A DNA stretch of 39,308 nucleotides from a virus: positions 1 to 39,308 of IMG/VR virus record IMGVR_UViG_3300045988_099729; one strand, 5' to 3'. The translations under genes were made by a program, and so were the position numbers. The notes beneath the pieces are model-generated. The model was not told the DNA's origin. It saw only the letters and a program-made list of their open reading frames with translations, and ran no database searches. Positions 1 through 39,308 of the stretch are shown in pieces; position 1 is the stretch's first letter; every line of letters begins with the position of its first letter.

Positions 1-63
1 TAATTGCATTTCATCTAAAACCGGTTGCATTCTTCGCAATACATCCATTATTTTCGCTTCCAT
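1..63 (-). CDS. 5' end (21 codons, MEAKIMDVLRRMQPVLDEMQL) of an unidentified gene truncated by the window edge; mirror copy of 39246..39308
   Basis: ATG at 63..61 on the minus strand, preceded by AAGGAG (75..70) with a 6-nt spacer. The frame stays open to the window edge and is identical to the right-end copy. Confidence 0.4.
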   Translation of the reverse strand, partial: MEAKIMDVLRRMQPVLDEMQL

Positions 64-119
64 ACATTGCTCCTTTTTTGCTTTCAGTATATCAACTGGC
101 GTACTGAATTAAGTAGCAA
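1..119. repeat. Left arm of a perfect 119-bp terminal inverted repeat (partner 39190..39308)
   Basis: The reverse complement of 39190..39308 is identical to 1..119. Identity ends at position 120 (a versus t), which is 16 nt into the 19-bp fibre core site. Confidence 0.97.
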
Positions 120-122
120 ATT
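104..122 (+). repeat. Fibre crossover core site sC (ctgaattaagtagcaaatt, 18/19 match to the active-gene core)
   Basis: Direct comparison with 38485..38503. The codon phase is the same, encoding (T)ELSSKL. Confidence 0.85.
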
Positions 123-435
123 AAAAAATGCAGAGACAACAATGAGCAATAATTTAAAAAGTTTACTGTCTGTAAAGCAGGTAACGGTAAAGAGTAATAT
201 AAACGTTGGCGCAGGAAAGGATTTTAATTGTTATTTAAAACCGCCTACAGTAAATGGCTACACACCTATTGGAGTAATCGGATATGATCTAGTTGGAGAT
301 TGGGATGTATGGGTAAATATCGTGTCCTGTTATTATAACAGTAGTAATGGTTTGCTTTACATAAAAGGACACAATTTCGGAACGGGAACATGTATTGCAT
401 TAGCGAATGTATTTGTTCTGTACAAAAAGAACTAA
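104..435 (+). CDS. Silent alternative tail-fibre C-terminal cassette C (about 110 aa, no start or RBS of its own)
   Basis: Begins with the in-frame core (TELSSKLKNAETT...). Upstream sequence is the antisense of the truncated gene at 1..63. The only upstream start in the ORF track is a TTG at 25. Stop at 433..435. Confidence 0.7.
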
Positions 436-436
436 A

Positions 437-828
437 TTATTTCCATTTTCCGATTATAAGCATATTACATTGTGAATAACACATTCCCTTTTTTACCGAA
501 TAAACTGTAAGTTTATATCCAGTTGTGCTTACTTCATTGACTCCTGTCCAGTATAGTTCATTTGTAGTTCCAGGAGATACTATAATCAATGGTGCTTCCT
601 TGAATGTGAATGGAAAATCTACAGCTTTACTAGAAACAAAATATAATCCATACCAATTTGTAGCAACGTCAGTACTCCATGTGTATTTACGCCATACAAC
701 TGCATCCCCATTAGAATATTTTATATAGTTGTATCCGTTCTTTGCTCCTCGCTCTACGATAGAAATCAGTTTATTGTTTATGGTTGCAATACTTTCGTTC
801 GATTTTGCCAAATTGCTATTTAGTTCAG
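437..828 (-). CDS. Silent alternative tail-fibre C-terminal cassette D (about 130 aa, no start of its own)
   Basis: The minus strand reads S-E-L-N-S-N-L-A-K-S-N-E-S... from the core at 828..810. An in-frame TAG (838..836) lies three codons upstream of the core. The ORF-track start at 811 is the TTG inside the core. The stop is 1 nt from the cassette C stop. Confidence 0.7.
810..828 (-). repeat. Fibre crossover core site sD (ctgaactaaatagcaattt on the minus strand, 17/19)
   Basis: Direct comparison with 38485..38503. It is inverted relative to the active-gene core and in the same codon phase. Confidence 0.8.
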
Positions 829-864
829 AATCCCTCTAAAAAGAAGAAAGGGGCAAACAGAAAA

Positions 865-1439: not shown

Positions 1440-4091
1440 ATGGACAATATCGTATCCTGCAAATTAGATTCCAGATACGCATCCACGCTAGGGATATGGC
1501 AGTATGATTACGGTCAGGTGCTCCGGATCACAGGTCCGGAGCTTCCACCGGCAGTGGAAGTGCAGTTTTCGCTGGACGAGAAATTAGGAGAGACATTATC
1601 CAGAGTCGGCACGACGGTAGACGGAGTTACAGAGGTAAAGATTCCGGATGAATTACTGAAACACAGTGCGACAAGTAATTACCGGATCTATGCTTATATC
1701 TATCTGACAGATGAGACTTCAGGAAACACCAAATATGAAATTACAATCCCGGTCAGGGTACGTAGTAAGCCAACCTCTCCGGCGGAAGATCCAGAGACGG
1801 ATCCGGATCTCTTTAGGGAGACAGTAGTAGCGGTCAATGCATCTGCTGAACGAGCTGAGAATGCTGCAAGCTCTGCGATGGAAAGTGCAGCATCGGCAGA
1901 TGAGACACTGGCAGAGATCAAACGTGTTGCAGATGGTATTTCGGGAAATATCGAGAACGCCAACACAATGAAGTCTGAGCTCTCTGATATGATCAACAAT
2001 GCAGGGATAGAGAAGAAAGAGCTGGAATCATCAATTGGAAAAGCCGGAGAAGCTAAGATGGCATTAGACAGCTCCATTAGATCCGCTGGAGAGAAGCAGT
2101 TAGCGTTAGACACCACGGTAGAACATGCGAATACAGTAGACGCATCGTTGAAAGAGCATATAGGTAGTGCTGAGCAAATACAGGCAAATGTTGAGCAGAT
2201 TGCGAACAATAAAGAGGATATTGGTTCACTACAGGAAGAGTTAGGTGATATAGAATCAAAATTTGAGATTGAAACCGAAGCTTTTTCTAATAAATGTTCA
2301 ATTATTAGAAATAACACACCTAACAATTTCACAGGAAATCAAATAACGGGCGTAAAACAATATTTTGATTTTGGTGAAAACGCAGCACTAACAAAAATAA
2401 AGATGAATATTAAAGCATCTAATGACGATACTGTCGCTTTAGAAATCGCCACTCTTGATGGCAATATTATAGCAACAGCAGAAAAGGCGGTTACAACAGA
2501 ATATACAGATGTTGTGTTTGATTTAGAGAATATTGTTATTAAAGAACCTGTTTCAGTATTTGTATATACAAAAGGAACCAATTTACTGTCATATGGTTTA
2601 TATGCAACGCCATATGACGATCAATCATTTTCGTATATTTTTCCTGATGGTACAAGGAAATCAGCATTTAAGATTGGTACATCAGAAATACTAAAACCCA
2701 CAGCATCAAATAATAAGCAATGCTTAGTTTTGTTCTTTGATTATACATCTAAGATCATAAAGAATATCTCTGATTCCATTTCACAAAATATTGATACAAC
2801 TTTGTTGAAAAGTGGAAAAGCCGCAGACGCTAAAGTAGTTGGAGATAAATTAAGTAAACTAAAGGAAGATTTATCCAACAAAATCACAAAGTTCTATGCA
2901 TCGAATCAGGGCGAAACTCATCTGGCAGATTCTGACAATGGGAAAATCATGGATATGATGCTGTATGGACGGAGCGAACAGAAGCAGTATCGTGGCATAA
3001 ATTTAATTCCTCCTAACATTAAATATGGAGGCTTTGTAGAAGTTTCGATTCCAAAAGGGACAAAAGTTTTTGCGATTACAGATGGAACAAGTGTTATGGG
3101 TGGTAACTTCCGTTTTTTTAATGCAGATAAAACAGAAAATATGTGGTTCGGAATAGACCAAGGTGTTACTATTGCGACAACTATATTAAAAATTGATGCT
3201 AAATATGTGCAGAATCTTATATCACCCGTTTTCGATTTATCAAAAATATGTTTAGGTATTGGAAATGAACCAATATATGAACCCTATGTTGGAGGTCAGC
3301 CATCCCCATCACCAGATTATCCGCAGGAGATAAAAAGAGTGGTGAATCCTACAGTTAAAGTAACAAATGAAGATGGGTTAAAGGTTCAATCTGTTACACT
3401 TAACAATATCACCCTTAACGCAATATCAGTCTCAAGTGGTGGTAACGTCACAATCGACGGAAAGCAGTATATTGCGGATAGAGTTGTGGAAAAAGACGGT
3501 GTATTTGGCATCGAAAGAAATATTCGAGAAATCCATACGAATACAAAAACTATGAATAACAGCGAGGAGTATCCTGGATGGAAAAAAGTAGAAGGCATAT
3601 CTGATGTTGTATATTACAATGTGGATCCCGTAGGAGACTCCAGAAAACTTACTTTTATATCTAATTTTACAAAGGATAGTTTTTTGCAAAATAATAAAGG
3701 AACAAATAATATCTTGTACTTTATAAAGAATATTATTGGTTATTCACAATCTGAATTGATTGCTAAAGCAATAGATGTAGATATGTATATCAGATTGCAA
3801 GATGCTATATTTGAGCCTCTTCCGGGGGATATACAAGCTAAATTGCGAACCCTTGTCACTAACTACCCAGTAACCAACATCTCCGTCACATCCGACCAGT
3901 TAGACGGATATACAGTATTTAACTATCCAATCTCTCTTGCTGATGGTTGGAACTATGTGAAACAGCAGATTAACGACAACCGTGATTACATCTATAACAT
4001 GGACGCACGTACTCAGGACACCGATTTACAGGTGGCAGAAGCCTATGTGAACAGTGAGTACGCAGTAGCACTTGCAGAATTGGAGGTATGA
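1440..4091 (+). CDS. Large tail fibre / receptor-binding protein with a BppU-N-like N-terminus, coiled-coil shaft and AT-rich distal domains (883 aa)
   Basis: The N-terminus (WQYDYGQVLRITG...YAYIYLTDE...ITIPVRVRSKP) resembles the baseplate-upper-protein Ig-like domain. A long Ala/Glu/Ser-rich heptad region follows. The motif GKAADAKVVGDKL is common in phage fibres. Confidence 0.8.
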   Translation: MDNIVSCKLDSRYASTLGIWQYDYGQVLRITGPELPPAVEVQFSLDEKLGETLSRVGTTVDGVTEVKIPDELLKHSATSNYRIYAYIYLTDETSGNTKYEITIPVRVRSKPTSPAEDPETDPDLFRETVVAVNASAERAENAASSAMESAASADETLAEIKRVADGISGNIENANTMKSELSDMINNAGIEKKELESSIGKAGEAKMALDSSIRSAGEKQLALDTTVEHANTVDASLKEHIGSAEQIQANVEQIANNKEDIGSLQEELGDIESKFEIETEAFSNKCSIIRNNTPNNFTGNQITGVKQYFDFGENAALTKIKMNIKASNDDTVALEIATLDGNIIATAEKAVTTEYTDVVFDLENIVIKEPVSVFVYTKGTNLLSYGLYATPYDDQSFSYIFPDGTRKSAFKIGTSEILKPTASNNKQCLVLFFDYTSKIIKNISDSISQNIDTTLLKSGKAADAKVVGDKLSKLKEDLSNKITKFYASNQGETHLADSDNGKIMDMMLYGRSEQKQYRGINLIPPNIKYGGFVEVSIPKGTKVFAITDGTSVMGGNFRFFNADKTENMWFGIDQGVTIATTILKIDAKYVQNLISPVFDLSKICLGIGNEPIYEPYVGGQPSPSPDYPQEIKRVVNPTVKVTNEDGLKVQSVTLNNITLNAISVSSGGNVTIDGKQYIADRVVEKDGVFGIERNIREIHTNTKTMNNSEEYPGWKKVEGISDVVYYNVDPVGDSRKLTFISNFTKDSFLQNNKGTNNILYFIKNIIGYSQSELIAKAIDVDMYIRLQDAIFEPLPGDIQAKLRTLVTNYPVTNISVTSDQLDGYTVFNYPISLADGWNYVKQQINDNRDYIYNMDARTQDTDLQVAEAYVNSEYAVALAELEV

Positions 4092-7286: not shown

Positions 7287-7338
7287 GTCTTGTACTAACT
7301 AAACTACCCCAAACGGAGTCAACCAGTTAGTACAAGAC
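7287..7338. repeat. 13-bp perfect inverted repeat separated by 26 nt, between the convergent endolysin and integrase genes; attP candidate or bidirectional terminator
   Basis: gtcttgtactaac (7287..7299) and gttagtacaagac (7326..7338), ending 1 nt from the integrase stop. Confidence 0.5.
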
Positions 7339-7339
7339 G

Positions 7340-8731
7340 CTATAAGAAATCAACAGAGTCAACGGTATGATCAGTATTCAGGTGAATCTTCCGGATAATG
7401 GAGTGCCAGAAAGCTCTGCGGTTTTCTTGGGTTAAATTGTAGTACATTGTTCTAAAGTCTGTATTCAGCAGATCTTCCAGATAAGCATAATCAGGTTCTA
7501 ATTCCGGAGCCGCATTTAACAATTCATTCAGATCGTTTTCAATCCGATCATATTCTTTGCTGTAATAATCCCATTCGATTCTTCCTTTCTGGAAGAGAAG
7601 ATTTAATCGTTCTAATTCTTTCTGGAGCTTTTCCGGAGTCTGGACTTTCTTCTTTTTTTCTTGTTCCTTTTCAATTTTTTCACATTTTATTTTAAATTTA
7701 TTGTATTCGTATTCCAGATGATCAATCAGGTATTGTTCTATGAGATTTTGACTTACCATGTGCTTGTATGTACATTTGTGATCAATAAAAGCTTTGTTGC
7801 ATCGGTAATAGCAGTATATTTTTTTGGCACCGGTTTTCCGGTTGATAATGGACGAACCGCCTCTTGCGCTAAGCCTGCGTCCACAGATCGGACAATTTAT
7901 CATGCCACTGAAAAGATAAATCCGGCCAGAAGGAGCACGCTTAACATTTGCGTTCTGTATTTCCTGCAGATTGTTCCATTCAGATTCTGTCAGGTAAGCA
8001 GGGCAGTATGGAATCCCGCGATAGGTTCCTTTGTAAAATTCACTCGACAGCAGTGTTCGCATATTCGCCCATGTAAAATCCGGATCATAATTTTCCTGAA
8101 TATAGCGCATGGAAAGCCCTTTTGCATGGTGCTTAAAGAAAAAACGATAAAAGGCATTTACAGTGTCTTCTCGATCTGGATCTTTTACCATGCGTTTTAC
8201 TCCATCAATGATTCCGGATTTGTAGCCGTACCCCATATTCACATCACCGAAGATCAGCTTTCCCTGTCGGATAGATGCTTCGTTTACGAATTTGATACGT
8301 TCGCTGGTGGTATCCACTTCATTCTGGCCAATAGACAGGACTACATTCAGCTGCAACCGTCCATCCCTGGTTTCCATATTGATTCCTGGTTCACTGGTGC
8401 TGATCCAGCGGACGTTATTATTGTCGAGGACTTCTTGGACCTTATAAAAATCAGACAGGTTACGAAACCATCTATCAATCCGCCAGAAGATGATCACATC
8501 AATTTTTCCGGCTTTTACATCTTCGAGAAGTGAATGGATAGCTTTTCTCTTTTTTAATTCTTTACGGGCGGTTTTACCTTCATCCGCATAAACTCCAACA
8601 ATAGTCATGTTGTGCTCTTTGGCGTAATTGGTCAGGTACTGCTTTTGCGCTTCCAGGGATTTACCGTGCATCATCTGTTCAGCGGTAGACACACGGATGT
8701 AAATGGCGCAGCGTTCAATTTTACTTGGCAT
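7340..8731 (-). CDS. int: Large serine recombinase (phage integrase), 463 aa
   Basis: N-terminal resolvase motif CAIYIRVSTAEQ. Central recombinase domain, Cys-rich zinc ribbon (CPICGRRL...CYYRC...C) and C-terminal coiled coil (KEQEKKKKVQTPEKLQKELERL). Confidence 0.9.
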   Translation of the reverse strand: MPSKIERCAIYIRVSTAEQMMHGKSLEAQKQYLTNYAKEHNMTIVGVYADEGKTARKELKKRKAIHSLLEDVKAGKIDVIIFWRIDRWFRNLSDFYKVQEVLDNNNVRWISTSEPGINMETRDGRLQLNVVLSIGQNEVDTTSERIKFVNEASIRQGKLIFGDVNMGYGYKSGIIDGVKRMVKDPDREDTVNAFYRFFFKHHAKGLSMRYIQENYDPDFTWANMRTLLSSEFYKGTYRGIPYCPAYLTESEWNNLQEIQNANVKRAPSGRIYLFSGMINCPICGRRLSARGGSSIINRKTGAKKIYCYYRCNKAFIDHKCTYKHMVSQNLIEQYLIDHLEYEYNKFKIKCEKIEKEQEKKKKVQTPEKLQKELERLNLLFQKGRIEWDYYSKEYDRIENDLNELLNAAPELEPDYAYLEDLLNTDFRTMYYNLTQENRRAFWHSIIRKIHLNTDHTVDSVDFL

Positions 8732-8935: not shown

Positions 8936-9481
8936 TTATTTCAGCAGATCGGCAATACGGATCTTTAAATCATTGTAGATTCCCACGCTGATTTCTTCAT
9001 CAAAAGAATATTGCGTAGAATCTTCTGGCTCACCAAAACAGTAGACTTGGACGATCCGTGTCATTGGATTGACAATCCAGTATTCGCGGACACCGGCTGT
9101 ACGGTACTTAAATAATTTTGTAAGGTAATCCATACGCTGGCTGCTTGGCGATACAATTTCAATGATGAAATCAGGAGCGCCGTTGCATCCTCTGTCGTTC
9201 ATTTTGCTTGGATCACATATTATGGAGATATCCGGCTCAACATAATTATAATTATCCTGATTAAGAAAAACAGCAAATGGAGCAGGATAAACCTCACAGG
9301 AACCACTATTTGATTTAATGTAGTTTCTGATGGTTGCAGATAATTCCATTACAAGTTTCTGATGCAATGGACTTGGTGGAGCCATATTGTAGATCTGACC
9401 ATCGATCAGCTCGGCACGCTGTCCATCTGGAAGAAGATAGATATCTTCAACTGTGTAAGTGTTTGGTTTTGGTAATGGCAT
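8936..9481 (-). CDS. Uma2-family (DUF820) putative endonuclease, 181 aa
   Basis: Typical Uma2 pattern: YTVEDIYLLPDGQRAELIDGQIY-MAPPSPLHQ ... EPDISII ... APDFIIEIVSPSS ... D...K...Y...GV-EYWIV. Confidence 0.8.
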   Translation of the reverse strand: MPLPKPNTYTVEDIYLLPDGQRAELIDGQIYNMAPPSPLHQKLVMELSATIRNYIKSNSGSCEVYPAPFAVFLNQDNYNYVEPDISIICDPSKMNDRGCNGAPDFIIEIVSPSSQRMDYLTKLFKYRTAGVREYWIVNPMTRIVQVYCFGEPEDSTQYSFDEEISVGIYNDLKIRIADLLK

Positions 9482-9519
9482 GTGATCACGTCCTTTCTGA
9501 AAATAAAATAAAGTTAATA

Positions 9520-11031
9520 TTATTCTAGTTCTTCGTCGTCTTCATCGGTATTAACGTAATTTTTTGAATAGTTTTCAGTAGTTGATAAAGATTGACGGTA
9601 TTCTTCAGCTGCCATAGTTCGATTAAATTCGGCAGTTGGCTCTATTTCGGTGACTAATTCTTCCAATTCATCTATTGTAACGTTGAAGAATTCTTTTCTC
9701 ATGTTTACTTTGTTGACTCGCTTTTGATTTAACATTTCATGCAATTTGCTTTCTAATCCAACAGCATCATCAGAGAAAATAAAGCTGTGGACATCAAATT
9801 TAAATGGAACAGATGCATTACCCAATTCATCTACACGATCCTGAGGATTAAGTCTTCTTGTCATTCCGATTTTAAATACATTTTCACCAAATGAACCAAG
9901 ATTGCTAATAACATATACATTTCCCGCTTTTCCATTCGCAAGATTGGAAATTTCTTCTTTTTTGAGAACAACTTCAGATAATTGCGCTTGTAATTGAAGG
10001 ATTCGAGCATTAAGTTGTTCGATTTCAGACGAAGAGGCGGATTGCAACTGATTCTGTAACTTTTCTATTTCAGTATTATATTTAGATTCTTCTTTTTCTA
10101 CTTTCTTGCGCTCTGCTTCGAGAGCTTTGCGTTCTTGGGCTTCCTGTCGCATTTGCTCACGAATAGCAAGTTGCTCTTGGCGAGACTGTTCTTTTTTGAC
10201 GTAATAGTTATATTCTATTTTTACAGCATTGATAAAGAGATATTCTATTTCTCCGATGAATTTAGTTAATGTACCGGCTATGCTCTGATTTCCTTCAGCT
10301 GCAACTTTTAAGAATTTTTGAGTTACCTTTTTGACATCTCCAATAGATGTATCGAGTTTCTCATATTTGAGGTTATATAAAATATTCTGAAGCTCAGCTC
10401 GGAGAGCAATGACCATTAACTTATAAATAGCTTGATTGGCTTTTGTGGTATATCTGGCAGAATATTTTTGCAAAATAGAATCTATCTGCTTATCATTAAG
10501 TCTATAAGCTTTCTGTAAATCTTTTATATCCATGCAATGTAATTTTAATATAACAGACGGACTAATTTCTTCCAGTTCGGATAATTGATTTTCAGGAAAA
10601 CGAAGAGTGCTTTGCGAAGGCTCATAATTCAAGTATTTATCAAATGTGTAATTTATGGCTTTTACGAGTTCCTTAGATTTATTCAGTTTATTAGTTTGAG
10701 TTTTTACATTTTTGTTTAATTTTACCTCTTGAGAACGCAATTCCTCTAATTGGTTCAAAATATTTTGACATTCAGAATTTTTTTCAGCGATGGATTTATC
10801 GATGGAATCCAGATGCTTTTGGAAGTCTTCTTGAGCGGTTTGCTTTTTGGATTCATACTCACTTTTTAACTGCTCGGTCATGTCAAGAATTTTGTAATAA
10901 TCAAAAGCTCCTAATTCTTGGAGTTGTTGGTGCATATTTTGATTATCGTTAAGTAAGTTTTGATTTTCGTTTTTGAGTTGTTCGATTTCAGCTTTGAATT
11001 GCTTAATTTTAAAAATATCCCCTATTCCCAT
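9520..11031 (-). CDS. DUF4041-like coiled-coil protein with a C-terminal T5orf172/MUG113 (GIY-YIG-like) domain, 503 aa; candidate defence gene
   Basis: Long coiled-coil N-terminal and middle parts. The C-terminus is NVYVISNLGSFGENVFKIGMTRRLNPQDRVDELGNASVPFKFDVHSFIFSDDAVGLESKLHEML...KEFF. AAGGAG RBS. The gene is strongly AT-rich. Confidence 0.75.
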   Translation of the reverse strand: MGIGDIFKIKQFKAEIEQLKNENQNLLNDNQNMHQQLQELGAFDYYKILDMTEQLKSEYESKKQTAQEDFQKHLDSIDKSIAEKNSECQNILNQLEELRSQEVKLNKNVKTQTNKLNKSKELVKAINYTFDKYLNYEPSQSTLRFPENQLSELEEISPSVILKLHCMDIKDLQKAYRLNDKQIDSILQKYSARYTTKANQAIYKLMVIALRAELQNILYNLKYEKLDTSIGDVKKVTQKFLKVAAEGNQSIAGTLTKFIGEIEYLFINAVKIEYNYYVKKEQSRQEQLAIREQMRQEAQERKALEAERKKVEKEESKYNTEIEKLQNQLQSASSSEIEQLNARILQLQAQLSEVVLKKEEISNLANGKAGNVYVISNLGSFGENVFKIGMTRRLNPQDRVDELGNASVPFKFDVHSFIFSDDAVGLESKLHEMLNQKRVNKVNMRKEFFNVTIDELEELVTEIEPTAEFNRTMAAEEYRQSLSTTENYSKNYVNTDEDDEELE

Positions 11032-11052
11032 AAAGTGTTCTCCTTTGTATTA

Positions 11053-11511
11053 TTATATAAATTTAATAATTGTAAGATGTGGTATAAAATACACCACATA
11101 ATTATCCACCTGTTTACAGATTCCGTATTTATTCCGGTAACACTCAATACATTCTTCCAGAAATTCTTCTGTCACTTCCAGGTATTCAGCGATTTCAAAC
11201 CGGTTCTGACAGCCATGCTCAAAGGCTCGTACCAGTCCGATCAGACCGATCTGCTTGTTGTACGCCCAGAGTCTTGCCTGACGTTCCTGTTTTCGGTTGG
11301 CAGCAGATGTCATATCGATGATATTTCCGACAGATGTTTCGTGGTGTCCGAGTTCTTCAGCTAAAGCACAGGTCTTTTCCGGAATGGTCATGTCTTCTCG
11401 GATGGCAATCTTGTTTCCCTTAATTCTTCCGTCACTTCCTTGGAGGGGCTTTTCCTTTACCAGCATTCCATCATTGTAGGCATTGTCTAAAAGTATTTCG
11501 TAAGGATTCAA
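11053..11511 (-). CDS. ImmA/IrrE-family (COG2856) metallopeptidase-like protein with an atypical EELGH motif, 152 aa
   Basis: Directly downstream of the XRE repressor, as in ImmR/ImmA pairs. The motif LAEELGHHETS (11341..11358) sits where HExxH is expected. Confidence 0.7.
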   Translation of the reverse strand: MNPYEILLDNAYNDGMLVKEKPLQGSDGRIKGNKIAIREDMTIPEKTCALAEELGHHETSVGNIIDMTSAANRKQERQARLWAYNKQIGLIGLVRAFEHGCQNRFEIAEYLEVTEEFLEECIECYRNKYGICKQVDNYVVYFIPHLTIIKFI

Positions 11512-37012: not shown

Positions 37013-38004
37013 AGGACATAATTCTTGCAGATAGTGCTGGAAGAGAACTTGGAGCGATTTTGGACTCAAATATCACAGTGGATACGAATGGCGAGTACGA
37101 ATTTTCTGTACAGATTGCAAGGTCGAACTGGTATCCGGAGCTGACCTTTTCAAGCTATGTGTATATTACGGATACGGAATACGGAGGCATTATCGGAGAG
37201 GTGCTGACAGATACAACGCTGGATTATGTGGAGCTGAAGGGAATCACATGGCGGGGAAGACTGCAGTATAAGGTGATTGAACCGCCTACCGGATCTGACT
37301 ACAAAACGATATCCGGCGAACTGAATCAGGTAATGAAAACACTGATCGAGCCGGAGTTTGATGGATTATTCAGAGTTTCATCAGAAGATACGGGTATATC
37401 TGTAAAGAATTTTCAATTTGACCGGTACTGTACATTACTGGAAGGTCTTACCAAAATGCTGAAAAGTGTTGGATACCGCCTGCAGATCCGGTTGATCAAA
37501 GAACAGGATGAACCATGTTATATTCTGATTGAAGCAGTTCCGATTACTGATTATTCTGCGCAGATTGAATTGTCACAGGACAGTCGAATGAATTTCACGA
37601 TGGATGATAAACAAAATGGCGTAAATCATCTGGTCGTAACCGGAAAAGGGGAAATGCAGGAGAGGAACATATTCCATCTGTATGTGCAGAAAGATGGAAG
37701 CATTGGAAAGACGCAGTATTACAAAGGACTGAATGAGATCTCAGCAGTATATGAAAATACGAGCACAGAAACAGCAGAGCTGGAGAAAACGTCCGTGGAA
37801 CAATTGCAGAAGCTGATGAATAAAAAGACATTTCAGATGGATGTTGCAAAGCTTGGAATCGAGGTTGGGATTGGAGATATTGTCGGTGGCAGGGATTACC
37901 TGACTGGGCTGTATATGTCAAAACCAATCGAAAATATCATTTATGAGATTACGAATGATGTGGAATCAATTACTTATAAACTGGAAGGAGAAGATGAAGA
38001 ATGA
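37006..38004 (+). CDS. Tal-slot protein (Sipho_Gp37-like), GTG start
   Basis: 332 aa, directly after Dit. N-terminus DIILADSAGRELGAILDS...EYEFSVQIA. Confidence 0.65.
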   Translation: MVKDIILADSAGRELGAILDSNITVDTNGEYEFSVQIARSNWYPELTFSSYVYITDTEYGGIIGEVLTDTTLDYVELKGITWRGRLQYKVIEPPTGSDYKTISGELNQVMKTLIEPEFDGLFRVSSEDTGISVKNFQFDRYCTLLEGLTKMLKSVGYRLQIRLIKEQDEPCYILIEAVPITDYSAQIELSQDSRMNFTMDDKQNGVNHLVVTGKGEMQERNIFHLYVQKDGSIGKTQYYKGLNEISAVYENTSTETAELEKTSVEQLQKLMNKKTFQMDVAKLGIEVGIGDIVGGRDYLTGLYMSKPIENIIYEITNDVESITYKLEGEDEE

Positions 38005-38843
38005 AAATTGTATCTGGAAGAACCGGATCACCACATGTGACTTCGCAGCAGTTCCGGCAGATGCTGGAGGGGATTATCGGGCAGGGGAGTTATATTATAA
38101 CAAGCGGAGAGAATCTGAAGCCGGAACTTAGCAGTAATAATCTGCTGAAAATCCGAAGTGGGATGATGGCGCATCACGGCTGTATATCTTGCGTGGATAT
38201 TGGTACTTATGATGAGGTTACACTGACAAATGGTAGTCAAGGAATGAAAAGGATTGATCTTATTGTAAATCGGTATACCAGAAATGCAGAGACAGAGGTT
38301 GAAAACTGCAGTTGGAAGGTAATCCAGGGGAAACCGGTTGCAAGTAATCCGGCAGTGCCGGCATACACTTCGGGAAATTTGCAGAATGGAGATCTTGTGG
38401 ATGAATGCCCGGTTTTTGAAGTGCATTATGATGGAATCAATGTTACAGAAGTGAAGAGTTTGTTGAGTGTGACGGATGGACTTTCTGAATTAAGTAGCAA
38501 TTTAACCAAAACTAACACTGTTTTAGAGAACAGGAAACCAATATTCATTGATTCAACGGCGCAAGGAACAGCAAATTTGGATACCAATAGCTTTTTGAAA
38601 GCTGGCGTTACATATGCTTTCATCGTTATGGTTTCCTCCAATATCAGCAGTGAAAGCTATAAACAGGAAATCGCTTGTGCATTAAACAATGTAAATATGG
38701 GAAATAACGGAAACTATTACAAATTAGTTTCTACTTTTGCAGGAAAATGTAGCAAAGGCGATAAGCTTCATATTACTTCGTACAAAAATGGAGGCACATG
38801 GACTCTTTTTGCGACAAGAGCTATTTTTATACCAGTTAGCTAA
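38001..38843 (+). CDS. Tail fibre with a switchable C-terminus: constant part 38001..38484, core 38485..38503, currently fused cassette A to 38843
   Basis: ATGA overlap with the upstream gene and GGAAGGAG RBS. The core encodes (S)ELSSNL. Three further cassettes share the core in phase. Confidence 0.85.
   Translation: MKIVSGRTGSPHVTSQQFRQMLEGIIGQGSYIITSGENLKPELSSNNLLKIRSGMMAHHGCISCVDIGTYDEVTLTNGSQGMKRIDLIVNRYTRNAETEVENCSWKVIQGKPVASNPAVPAYTSGNLQNGDLVDECPVFEVHYDGINVTEVKSLLSVTDGLSELSSNLTKTNTVLENRKPIFIDSTAQGTANLDTNSFLKAGVTYAFIVMVSSNISSESYKQEIACALNNVNMGNNGNYYKLVSTFAGKCSKGDKLHITSYKNGGTWTLFATRAIFIPVS
38485..38503 (+). repeat. Fibre crossover core site sA (ctgaattaagtagcaattt) inside the expressed gene
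   Basis: Identical 19/19 to the inverted copy at 39187..39205, 18/19 to 104..122 and 17/19 to 810..828 (inverted). Confidence 0.85.
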
Positions 38844-39205
38844 TTAGCTAAAATAAGCCGTTGTTGCAATCATTACGAATGAGGCACTATCTGTACCGAC
38901 GATATATACTCCACCATTTTTTATGTATATACGTGCTTGTGTTCCAGCAGGTCCACCATTATGCGTAGCTATTGGAATAAGGCACTCAAAATCGCCATAA
39001 CCATTTGGTGTCATTCCTGACGGGACACTGCCGAGAGCCTGATCGTTTGCAAATTTCCCACCATCTAAAAATCTTATCGATCCAGAAACAAATACCACAT
39101 GACCTATTTTGCGGAATTTTAGCTTTTCTGAAAGATTATTTGCATTAGTCATATATTTCCAACCAGAATCAGCAGTTGCCGTTTTCAAATTGCTACTTAA
39201 TTCAG
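38844..39205 (-). CDS. Silent alternative tail-fibre C-terminal cassette B (about 115 aa, no start of its own)
   Basis: The minus strand reads TELSSNLKTATADSGWKY... from the core. Its stop codon abuts the cassette A stop with 0 nt between them (palindrome agctaattagct, 38838..38849). Confidence 0.7.
39187..39205 (-). repeat. Fibre crossover core site sB (inverted, 19/19 to sA)
   Basis: aaattgctacttaattcag on the + strand is the exact reverse complement of 38485..38503. Confidence 0.85.
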
Positions 39206-39308
39206 TACGCCAGTTGATATACTGAAAGCAAAAAAGGAGCAATGTATGGAAGCGAAAATAATGGATGTATTGCGAAGAATGCAACCGGTTTTAGATGAAA
39301 TGCAATTA
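39190..39308. repeat. Right arm of the 119-bp terminal inverted repeat
   Basis: Exact reverse complement of 1..119. Confidence 0.97.
39246..39308 (+). CDS. 5' end (21 codons) of an unidentified gene running off the window; possible fibre-switch recombinase
   Basis: AAGGAG at 39234..39239, 6-nt spacer, ATG at 39246. MEAKIMDVLRRMQPVLDEMQL stays open to the window end, 40 nt beyond core sB. Confidence 0.4.
   Translation, partial: MEAKIMDVLRRMQPVLDEMQL

What the first reader, a model, noticed from the sequence alone, without database searches (positions are those of the whole stretch)
38001..39308. Shufflon-like inversion switch offering four alternative C-terminal cassettes to one tail-fibre gene
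The expressed fibre gene (38001..38843) contains the 19-nt core ctgaattaagtagcaattt at 38485..38503, encoding (S)ELSSNL. The same core occurs three more times: 39187..39205 inverted (19/19), 104..122 direct (18/19) and 810..828 inverted (17/19). Each copy sits in the same codon phase at the head of an open frame of about 110-130 codons. Those frames have no ATG or RBS of their own, and their sequences are unrelated after the core. The cassettes lie in two tail-to-tail pairs (A>/<B and C>/<D). Inversion between sA and sB, or sA and sD, would fuse the constant 161-aa N-terminal part in frame to B or D, and C becomes reachable after a second inversion. This is the logic of the Mu G / P1 C / p15B Min segments and of the R64 pilV shufflon. 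As far as I can recall, however, the core resembles neither the 26-bp gix/cix/hix sites nor the R64 sfx repeat. The host context is a Gram-positive siphovirus, which also carries a second, invariant BppU-type fibre. I therefore treat it as a candidate new host-range switching system.
Basis: partly seen in the sequence, partly recalled or inferred. Interest (0 to 1): 0.9.

Follow-up and report, generated by a model that had tools for sequence, protein, structure and literature searches.

The report
Tail-fibre gene shuffling switch, gut phage
A temperate phage of the gut bacterium Coprococcus comes carries a DNA-flipping switch that joins one receptor-binding tail protein to any of four unrelated tips; the switch is real and seen flipped in public data, but it is a new variant of a kind already described in Bifidobacterium phages.

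Summary
The 19-nt core occurs four times (0.03 expected by chance), in one codon phase, heading four mutually unrelated cassettes.

The window is broken inside the switch: its ends are a 132-nt inverted repeat. It therefore lacks 1,023 bp encoding a 329-aa Xer-like tyrosine recombinase that sits between the two cassette pairs (seen intact in L001, the same phage).

Public contigs of the same phage differ by precise inversions bounded by the cores. A database protein (P0121) is 100% identical to the predicted constant+B fusion. In this strain 11 of the 16 possible flank × cassette junctions are seen.

Core polymorphisms place the strand exchange in TAGCA(A), the stretch that differs between recombinase clades.

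The constant domain is homologous to Rc of the Bifidobacterium Rin shufflon (34% identity, E 4e-28), and the break falls at the same junction. The recombinases (BLASTP E 0.06) and the sites are unrelated.

The module is widespread in Lachnospiraceae phages: about 24 cassette families on at least seven types of constant region.

Verdict: a new variant of a known kind. Receptor switching is inferred, not shown. Interest 0.5.

The parts
38001..38483 (+). Constant region K of the receptor-binding / tail-fibre gene (codons 1-161). Its start overlaps the stop of the Tal-like gene.
   Evidence: The ORF is 38001-38843. PHROG 9994 matches at 1.3e-69. It is homologous to Rin Rc: 34% identity over 176 aa, E 4e-28. 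The AF2 model has pLDDT 92-98 over residues ~20-160. The fold matches the phage 1358 RBP, a phi812 baseplate protein, SPP1 gp22 and many viral proteins annotated as receptor-binding proteins.
38485..38503 (+). Core site sA (junction K-A). It lies inside the expressed gene and encodes ELSSNL at the start of the linker helix.
   Evidence: Exact match. The model places a helix at residues 161-176. It is an inversion breakpoint in L107 vs L001.
38484..38843 (+). Cassette A, the C-terminal part currently expressed (119 aa plus stop).
   Evidence: Translation. Cassette family 0 is found joined to the K, U, V and R flanks in other contigs.
38844..39206 (-). Cassette B (120 aa), silent here and tail-to-tail with A.
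   Evidence: Translation. The K+B fusion protein P0121 is 100% identical to the prediction. L107 carries it in the expressed position.
39187..39205 (-). Core site sB (junction U-B).
   Evidence: Exact match. It is an inversion breakpoint.
39206..39308 (+). Flank U: a 40-nt leader with RBS plus the first 21 codons (39246-39308, MEAKIMDVLRRMQPVLDEMQL) of the tyrosine recombinase gene. The rest of the gene is missing from the window.
   Evidence: L001 11206-11308 is identical, and the gene continues to L001 12235 for 329 aa. PF00589 matches at 2.5e-34. The catalytic residues R186, K210, H276, R279, H302 and Y311 align with XerD.
1..103 (-). Second, inverted copy of flank U, here joined to core sC. 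It is an assembly trace of the recombinase segment in the opposite orientation, not a true second copy.
   Evidence: Inverted repeat I1, 1-132 vs 39177-39308, 97%. L001 has flank V in front of sC instead.
104..122 (+). Core site sC (junction U-C in this contig, V-C in L001).
   Evidence: One mismatch. The variant bases AAATT travel with cassette C.
103..435 (+). Cassette C (110 aa), silent.
   Evidence: Translation. It is fused to K in L011, L018 and L101 at 76-93% identity.
437..829 (-). Cassette D (130 aa), silent and tail-to-tail with C.
   Evidence: Translation. A K-D junction occurs in L006 (same phage), and full K-D genes occur in L023 and L103.
810..828 (-). Core site sD (junction R-D).
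   Evidence: Two mismatches. Its variant bases at positions 6 and 10 travel with flank R.
829..864 (+). Flank R, the fixed right border of the switch and the leader of the next late gene (865-1236).
   Evidence: It is conserved as the outer flank in dozens of loci. It is the junction of the precise deletion in L007.

Best explanation
This is a shufflon, a multiple-inversion switch, driven by a tyrosine recombinase and acting on the receptor-binding protein of a temperate siphovirus of Coprococcus comes.

Layout. The full locus reads K | A> <B | U'-recombinase-V | C> <D | R. K is the constant 161-codon part of the gene and R is the fixed right border. Four ~20-bp sites alternate in orientation (+, -, +, -).

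Mechanism. The 329-aa Xer-like recombinase is encoded between the two cassette pairs. It pairs any two inverted sites and exchanges strands within the central TAGCA(A). This flips the A/B pair, the C/D pair, its own gene segment, or larger blocks. Because every site is in the same codon phase, each flip that involves sA puts a different cassette in frame behind K. B and D are reached in one step and C in two.

Protein consequence. The exchange point lies at the start of a linker helix between a conserved N-terminal anchoring domain and the variable C-terminal part. A phage population therefore makes virions with alternative receptor-binding tips. The same recombinase also seems to delete between directly oriented sites, which leaves two-cassette loci without a recombinase.

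Shown: the sites, the phase, the recombinase gene, the inversions and their exact breakpoints, and the fusion proteins.

Inferred: that this recombinase is the catalyst, the exact cleavage positions, and that the cassettes change receptor or host specificity.
For: Sites and phase.

Intact locus. L001 is the same phage (100% over 11.3 kb and 99.99% over 7.2 kb) and has a tyrosine recombinase gene between the cassette pairs. The gene matches PF00589 and a SAM-like N-terminal domain. Its best NCBIfam hits are XerA/XerC/XerD-type models and its closest solved structures are XerA and XerD. All six catalytic residues are aligned.

Precise inversions bounded by the cores.
- L107 vs L001: 721 bp inverted, otherwise 100% identical.
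- L108 vs L109: right cassette pair inverted, 894 bp.
- L108 vs L110: recombinase segment inverted, 1,165 bp (all).

Fusion proteins. P0121 equals the predicted K+B fusion at 100% identity and 100% coverage, with more than 100 further K+B proteins, some from C. comes isolates. K-C and K-D fusions are found in relatives.

Heterogeneity within one assembly. These junction pairs cannot coexist in one genome:
- window: U-B and U-C
- L003: K-A and K-B
- L006: K-A and K-D
- L002: K-A and V-A
- L107: K-B and V-B

Crossover mapping over 134 sites. Core positions 4, 6 and 10 track the upstream flank (normalised MI 0.44, 0.84, 0.89). Positions 16-18 track the cassette. Positions 11-15 never vary.

Co-variation. 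Each recombinase clade (64-74% identity) has its own core centre, shared by all its sites: TAGCAA, TGGCAA, TGGTAA or TAACAA. The left arm is conserved.

Protein role. The gene follows the Dit and Tal-like genes. The N-domain fold matches receptor-binding and baseplate proteins. It is homologous to Rin Rc.
Against: - All evidence comes from assembled contigs. No raw reads were mapped, so switching rates are unknown. Contig paths longer than a read can be chimeric between subpopulations; this matters most for the apparent deletion forms.
- No experiment links this recombinase to the inversions. The phage also encodes a large serine recombinase (7340-8731), and the host may supply others.
- No promoter could be assigned to the recombinase.
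- The cassettes could not be modelled (pLDDT below 50), so their receptor-binding nature rests on position and analogy.
- A constant+C junction was not found in exactly this strain, only in relatives 76-93% identical in the cassette.
Confidence: 0.88

Rival explanations
1. The core is only a conserved ELSSNL-coding motif shared by paralogous, independently expressed genes, and nothing rearranges.
For: The wider protein family does end its N-domain with related motifs (ELNSK, ELNGK, AELN) even where no switch was examined. Gene callers call internal-start ORFs in B, C and D.
Against: Otherwise identical contigs differ by inversions whose ends are the cores. The exact K+B fusion exists. Flank-specific and cassette-specific core bases recombine in the pattern expected of crossover. 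B, C and D have a stop or non-coding sequence just upstream and no start at the core.
Confidence: 0.02
2. The rearrangements are real but arise from general homologous recombination between short repeats, or from assembler artefacts at repeats. They are not site-specific recombination.
For: A 19-nt repeat is a branch point for any assembler. The window itself is mis-joined there.
Against: - The junction k-mers (k = 119-141) span the 19-nt core, so they need reads that cross it.
- The same junction types recur in MEGAHIT, SPAdes and Logan assemblies from many samples.
- The exchange is confined to about 6 nt, with polarity always preserved: upstream flank joined to cassette, never flank to flank.
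- 19 bp is short for RecA-dependent exchange (established knowledge).
- A dedicated recombinase co-varies with the site.
Confidence: 0.04
3. Site-specific inversion occurs, but it is catalysed by another enzyme: the phage's large serine recombinase or a host invertase acting in trans. The embedded tyrosine recombinase would then have another role, such as integration.
For: Two-cassette loci without the recombinase occur in both orientations, so action in trans must be possible. The Bifidobacterium paper also proposes a trans-acting case.
Against: - The tyrosine recombinase keeps its position between the cassette pairs in 64 viral loci.
- Its clades have matching clade-specific cores.
- It lacks an arm-binding domain, as Xer-type recombinases and invertases do.
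- The serine recombinase sits in the lysogeny module beside the prophage end, the usual place for the integrase.
Confidence: 0.06

Closest known systems
Rin shufflon of Bifidobacterium breve/longum prophages (Mavrich et al. 2018, PMC6109161), also reported in Eggerthella lenta prophages (PMC8778435)
   Same: - It is carried by a temperate siphovirus of a Gram-positive gut bacterium.
- One constant RBP N-terminus (168 aa there, 161 aa here) is joined to alternative, mutually dissimilar C-termini of about 100-130 aa.
- The recombinase is an armless, Xer-like tyrosine recombinase.
- The constant domains are homologous: 34% identity, E 4e-28.
- The break falls at the same alignment position: rix is read as S-L-T and aligns with N-L-T at the 3' end of this core.
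   Different: - The recombinases are not detectably related beyond the superfamily motif (BLASTP E 0.06). Their N-domains differ (SAM_3 vs SAM_4) and their XerA model scores are 67 vs 203 bits.
- The site is an 11-bp rix, TTCCCTAACCC, against a ~20-bp core here. Neither site occurs in the other system.
- rin lies at the edge of the cassette array. Here the gene lies between two tail-to-tail cassette pairs and is itself inverted.
- The host phylum is Actinobacteria, against Firmicutes (Lachnospiraceae) here.
Int1 tail-fibre inversion of the haloarchaeal virus phiCh1 (cited in PMC8651126; details from my own knowledge)
   Same: A tyrosine recombinase gene lies between two oppositely oriented tail-fibre gene parts, inside the invertible segment. 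Inversion exchanges the fibre C-termini.
   Different: It is an archaeal myovirus with two genes and clusters of repeats, rather than four single sites and four cassettes. Homology was not tested here.
R64 plasmid shufflon (Rci recombinase, sfx sites, pilV; details from my own knowledge)
   Same: It is a tyrosine recombinase system with multiple inversions among several segments. A constant N-terminus is joined to alternative C-termini of an adhesin. The sites have one well conserved arm and one poorly conserved arm, as seen here.
   Different: The target is a conjugative pilus adhesin on a plasmid, not a phage protein, and the recombinase gene lies outside the segments. Rci is reported to avoid deletions, whereas deletion-type products are common here.
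Gin (Mu), Cin (P1), Pin (e14) and Min (p15B) tail-fibre inversion systems
   Same: These phage tail-fibre genes have a constant N-terminal part and invertible alternative C-terminal parts. Min performs multiple inversions.
   Different: They use small serine invertases with 26-bp sites and an enhancer (established knowledge). No such enzyme is present here. The only serine recombinase is a 463-aa integrase-type protein in the lysogeny module.
Type I restriction-modification hsdS shufflons (tyrosine recombinases in Firmicutes, Mycoplasma and Bacteroides; class reviewed in PMC9881135)
   Same: A tyrosine recombinase shuffles specificity-domain coding segments by inversion at short in-frame repeats.
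   Different: The target is a DNA-recognition subunit of a cellular defence system, not a virion protein.

Membership tests
Rin-type phage RBP shufflon | Constant N-terminal RBP domain of the Rc family | tested here: met
   BLASTP of the window fibre against Rc-Rv of a Rin locus (L127 4790-5599) gives 34% identity over 176 aa, E 4e-28. The joint alignment has 17 invariant columns.
Rin-type phage RBP shufflon | Armless, Xer-like tyrosine recombinase encoded in the locus | tested here: met
   L001 11246-12235 matches PF00589 and SAM_4, best fits XerA/XerC/XerD-type models, and has all catalytic residues. The gene is cut off in the window itself.
Rin-type phage RBP shufflon | Recombinase orthologous to Rin | tested here: not met
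   BLASTP against rin (L127 6857-7732) gives E 0.06 over a 34-aa motif only. tblastn of this recombinase against 60 Rin loci gives no hit at E up to 1e-3.
Rin-type phage RBP shufflon | rix crossover site TTCCCTAACCC | tested here: not met
   There is no rix match (up to 1 mismatch) in the window or L001, and no match to the 19-nt core (up to 3 mismatches) in 60 Rin loci.
Rin-type phage RBP shufflon | Inversions at the sites that create alternative full-length RBP genes | tested here: met
   L107 vs L001, P0121, and K-C and K-D genes in relatives.
R64-type shufflon (Rci/sfx) | Rci-family recombinase and sfx repeats acting on pilV | tested here: not met
   The target is a phage tail protein next to the Dit and Tal genes. 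No Rci or sfx reference sequence was at hand, so homology of the enzyme and the site was not tested. The judgement that they differ rests on memory.
R64-type shufflon (Rci/sfx) | Inversion only, with no deletion between direct sites | tested here: inconclusive
   Precise deletion-type contigs exist: L007 vs L001 (1,831 bp lost at the cores), and K|C D'|R in L101. Chimeric assembly paths cannot be excluded without reads.
Gin/Cin/Pin/Min serine invertase systems | Small serine invertase next to the invertible segment | tested here: not met
   The only serine recombinase (7340-8731) is 463 aa with a zinc-ribbon domain and lies 6.5 kb away in the lysogeny module. It scores 28.9 bits against the Mpi invertase model, whose cut-off is 272.
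Tyrosine recombinase core site (general) | Short overlap region identical between partner sites, flanked by recognition arms, with exchange inside the overlap | tested here: met
   TAGCA is invariant at all sites of a clade and differs between clades. Flank-linked and cassette-linked polymorphisms switch across it. There is an imperfect dyad, TGAATT-N7-AATTTA, and conservation is limited to positions -1 to +20. The cleavage positions themselves are not testable here.
phiCh1 Int1-type fibre inversion | Tyrosine recombinase gene inside the invertible DNA, between opposed fibre gene parts | tested here: met
   The architecture is seen in L001, and the recombinase segment is seen inverted in L110. 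Sequence homology to Int1 was not tested.

The most novel reading that the evidence does not exclude
The recombinase-plus-cassette unit may work as an integron-like mobile module, not only as a flip switch. Recombination between directly oriented cores would release a circle carrying the recombinase and a cassette pair with one core. That circle could insert into the core of another phage's fibre gene. Receptor-binding tips would then be traded between unrelated phage backbones at a fixed in-frame junction.

Observations that fit this reading:
- Precise deletion forms of the same strain exist, and a second deletion type is seen.
- Blocks of sequence identity between phages start and stop at the cores.
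- Recombinases 96-100% identical sit behind constant regions that are 50%, 33% or not detectably similar to this one.
- Cassette pairs occupy either slot.
Probability: 0.3. Interest if true: 0.75.

Novelty: new variant of a known kind. Interest (0 to 1): 0.5.

Why it matters
Lachnospiraceae are abundant gut bacteria whose phages are almost all uncultured, and their host-range determinants are unknown.

- The locus marks the exact domain boundary where receptor-binding tips are swapped.
- It supplies a natural library of about 24 cassette families on at least seven types of anchoring domain.
- The anchor family has at least 3,500 representatives at 50% identity.
- It shows that one RBP scaffold is served by two unrelated tyrosine recombinase and site pairs in two phyla.

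There is also a practical point for virome work. The switch breaks assemblies and creates false inverted terminal repeats. One phage then appears as several 'strains' that differ only in the orientation of the switch.

Tried and rejected
- First structure prediction, with the only alignment then allowed (22 near-identical sequences): mean pLDDT 36, discarded without a fold search.
- Sequence search of the fibre against PDB: nothing significant. A 7-sequence profile hit a chain called 'receptor-binding protein' (30yz_W, E 2.9e-4). With a 26-sequence profile the same hit fell to E 0.51, so I treat it as suggestive only. The profile's hit to 6xi1 is four weak repeats and looks spurious.
- Cassette structure: not obtainable (pLDDT below 50).
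- Promoter scan around the recombinase: no enrichment over shuffles.
- GenBank phage collection: no DNA match to the locus. Related 'integrases' (30-37% identity) between the tail genes and the holin occur in Terrisporobacter phage TPELB_ph1 and in phiCp-D. I checked them for flanking inverted repeats and found nothing convincing in the AT-rich noise. phiCs5676-1 shows no such tail-gene context.
- Literature searches for this system in Lachnospiraceae, Firmicutes or Coprococcus phages found nothing.
- 'BppU-type' second fibre: neither Pfam nor PHROGs supports the label.
Full report
OBSERVATION

The 19-nt core CTGAATTAAGTAGCAATTT is present four times, at 38485 (+), 39187 (-), 104 (+, 1 mismatch) and 810 (-, 2 mismatches). 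Shuffles give 0.03 expected matches, and there are no other matches at up to 3 mismatches. All four copies share one codon phase and head open frames of 119, 120, 110 and 130 codons, arranged as two tail-to-tail pairs. The four cassettes have no detectable similarity to each other (best BLASTP E 0.58). Their G+C content is 34-40%, lower than the 44% of the constant part.

The window as a whole is a complete temperate siphovirus. Terminase, portal and capsid genes are followed by the tape measure, Dit and Tal-like genes, then the fibre gene at the right end. At the left end lie a second long fibre, a holin, a GH25 endolysin, a large serine recombinase and a repressor module.

THE WINDOW IS BROKEN INSIDE THE SWITCH

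Bases 1-132 are the reverse complement of 39177-39308 at 97%. The identical 103 nt, flank U, are therefore joined to core sB at one end of the contig and to core sC at the other. U contains an RBS and the first 21 codons of a gene, with the ATG at 39246.

An 82-kb public contig, L001, carries the same phage: 100% identical over 11.3 kb and 99.99% over 7.2 kb. It shows the uninterrupted locus:

fibre gene K-A, then B on the opposite strand, then a 329-aa tyrosine recombinase gene, then C, then D on the opposite strand, then the next late genes.

The window lacks exactly L001 11309-12331, which is 1,023 bp. L001 departs from the window just after the endolysin gene, so L001 is the integrated prophage and the window is the excised or circular form.

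The inverted ends of the window mean that its assembler met the recombinase segment in both orientations.

THE RECOMBINASE

It matches PF00589 (2.5e-34) and a SAM-like core-binding domain. Its best NCBIfam models are XerA (203 bits, just under the cut-off of 220), XerC and XerD. Its closest solved structures are Pyrococcus XerA (7.9e-29) and E. coli XerD. In the XerD alignment all six catalytic positions are kept: R186, K210, H276, R279, H302 and Y311. It has no arm-binding domain. A terminator-like hairpin follows the gene, and no promoter could be assigned.

DIRECT EVIDENCE OF REARRANGEMENT

I named the four upstream flanks K (constant region), U (recombinase 5' end), V (recombinase 3' end) and R (right border), and classified every junction in every retrieved contig.

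L001 has the arrangement K-A, U-B, V-C, R-D. Contigs that encode the identical fibre protein also show K-B (L003), K-D (L006), V-A (L002), V-B (L009, which ends in Illumina adapter; and L107), U-A (L107), U-C (the window) and R-B (L004, L007). That is 11 of the 16 possible junctions for one strain.

Several contigs carry two junctions that cannot coexist in one genome, for example K-A and K-B in L003. Those samples were therefore mixed.

Pairwise alignments give base-pair proof:
- L107 and L001 are 100% identical except for a 721-bp segment that is precisely inverted, with the 19-nt cores at both boundaries.
- L108 and L109 differ by inversion of the right cassette pair (894 bp).
- L108 and L110 differ by inversion of the recombinase segment (1,165 bp).

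A protein search with the hypothetical K+B fusion returned P0121, 281 aa, at 100% identity and full coverage. More than 100 further K+B proteins followed, some from Coprococcus comes isolates and some on contigs up to 254 kb. Constant regions 97-99% identical to the window's are fused to B (99% identical cassette, L094), C (91%, L101) and D (92%, L103).

WHERE THE STRANDS ARE EXCHANGED

Across 134 sites, core positions 4, 6 and 10 follow the upstream flank (normalised mutual information 0.44, 0.84 and 0.89). No label shuffle out of 2,000 reached the observed value for positions 6 and 10; position 4 was not shuffled. Positions 16-18 follow the cassette (1.0, 0.52, 0.67). Positions 11-15, TAGCA, never vary.

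Conservation is confined to positions -1 to +20, and there is an imperfect dyad, TGAATT-N7-AATTTA.

Recombinase clades at 64-74% identity keep the same four-site layout but have their own centre, shared by all sites of a locus: TGGCAA, TGGTAA or TAACAA instead of TAGCAA. The left arm, CTGAATTAA, stays the same.

This is the behaviour of a tyrosine-recombinase overlap region. It also ties the site to this enzyme. The exact cleavage positions remain an inference.

SPREAD

The recombinase has 64 relatives in IMG/VR, and relatives in Faecalimonas and Mediterraneibacter genomes. The architecture K | x y' | U'-rec-V | z w' | R is conserved.

The 171 complete cassettes fall into 24 families. Each of the window's four cassette families is found behind all four flank types.

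Recombinases of the window's clade (96-100% identical), with the same core and cassette pool, sit behind five types of constant region. Three are homologous to each other (this one, one 50% identical, one 33% identical). Two are unrelated (those of L028/L079 and of L048). Clades with more divergent recombinases (64-74% identity) and their own core centres carry further types, including a collagen-like one and that of the Faecalimonas locus L082.

Blocks of identity between such phages begin and end at the cores.

Loci with two cassettes and no recombinase are common and occur in both orientations. L007 equals L001 minus exactly 1,831 bp (recombinase, C and D), with a core at the junction. These are either true deletions between direct sites or chimeric assembly paths. 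Reads are needed to decide.

WHAT THE PROTEIN IS

The constant domain defines a family with at least 3,539 representatives at 50% identity. It is always the N-terminal ~168 aa of proteins of 250-320 aa with variable ends.

With a diverse alignment, AlphaFold2 models residues ~20-160 at pLDDT 92-98. A helix spans residues 161-176, and the core-encoded SELSSNL is residues 162-168.

The best solved matches are a phi812 baseplate protein, the RBP of lactococcal phage 1358 and SPP1 gp22. In addition, 53 viral models match at E up to 1e-3, many of them named receptor-binding protein.

The cassettes themselves could not be modelled.

COMPARISON WITH WHAT IS KNOWN

Mavrich et al. 2018 (PMC6109161) described the Rin shufflon of Bifidobacterium prophages. 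It has a 168-aa constant Rc, Rv cassettes of 95-100 aa, an armless Xer-like tyrosine invertase, and 11-bp rix sites. It was later reported in Eggerthella prophages.

I retrieved 60 Rin loci from IMG/VR, found rin and tested homology directly:
- The window's constant domain is homologous to Rc: 34% identity over 176 aa, E 4e-28.
- rix is read as S-L-T and aligns with N-L-T at the 3' end of this core. Both systems therefore cut at the same junction of the same scaffold.
- The recombinases are not detectably related (E 0.06; no tblastn hit).
- The sites do not occur in each other's loci.
- rin lies at the edge of its cassette array, whereas here the gene lies inside the invertible DNA, as in the archaeal virus phiCh1.

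No paper describing this system in Firmicutes phages was found. No deposited phage genome matches the locus.

VERDICT

It is a new variant of a known kind rather than a new kind. Receptor or host-range switching is inferred from the protein's position, fold and homology. It has not been demonstrated.

Noticed in passing
window 1-132 and 39177-39308: The contig has a 132-nt inverted terminal repeat. It is an assembly product of the invertible recombinase segment, not a genome end. Completeness tools that accept inverted terminal repeats could call this contig complete, although 1,023 bp are missing.
   Followed up: yes
window 7313-8731: Identity with the prophage contig L001 stops at window 7313, just before the 463-aa large serine recombinase gene (7340-8731, minus strand). 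This is probably the phage integrase, with attP close by.
   Followed up: partly
window 8936-11031: A Uma2-family endonuclease-like gene (8936-9481, minus strand) and a 503-aa T5orf172/MUG113-domain gene (9520-11031, minus strand) lie next to the integrase. They may be accessory or defence genes of the prophage.
   Followed up: no
L007 1857-1876 vs L001 11206-13036; also L101, L104, L105, L096, L099: There are two-cassette loci without a recombinase. L007 is a precise 1,831-bp deletion of the same strain. Such loci occur in both orientations, which suggests flipping in trans or repeated independent deletions.
   Followed up: partly
L071-L075 (e.g. L071 3072-4020): These loci are decayed. The recombinase is truncated to residues 199-329 and the right slot is empty, so the V core abuts the inverted R core and forms the palindrome CTGAACTAAGTAGCAATTTAGTTCAG.
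   Followed up: no
L087 (PP197244 17645-18640) and L089 (MW478291 21639-22616): Terrisporobacter phage TPELB_ph1 and C. perfringens phage phiCp-D encode tyrosine recombinases 33-37% identical to this one, placed between the last tail gene and the holin and annotated as 'integrase'. TPELB_ph1 has a second integrase in its lysogeny module. No clear flanking repeats were found.
   Followed up: partly
L076 2279-2634; L058-L068: In the clade with the variant core, the constant region is collagen-like (Gly-X-Y repeats) and unrelated to the window's constant domain. It nevertheless ends in the same ELNGKL-type junction.
   Followed up: no
L108-L110, about 9870-11150: In close relatives the 883-aa second fibre (window 1440-4091) is replaced by a 294-aa Big_7/Big_13 protein plus a Big_3_4 protein. 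The 'invariant' fibre is therefore also modular between phages.
   Followed up: no
L009 2367-2382: This public contig ends in Illumina adapter sequence (AGATCGGAAGAGCACA) directly after 14 nt of flank V.
   Followed up: yes
L001 12256-12277: The terminator-like hairpin after the recombinase gene lies between the fibre gene and the downstream late genes when the segment is in the forward orientation. The orientation of the segment might therefore affect read-through into the second fibre and the lysis genes.
   Followed up: no
L094 4326 and L103 3166: In two metagenome contigs a cassette at the far end of the locus is fused in frame to a second, divergent constant-type ORF (167-172 codons) on the opposite strand. 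This is either a co-assembly of two related phages or an unusual double-ended locus.
   Followed up: no
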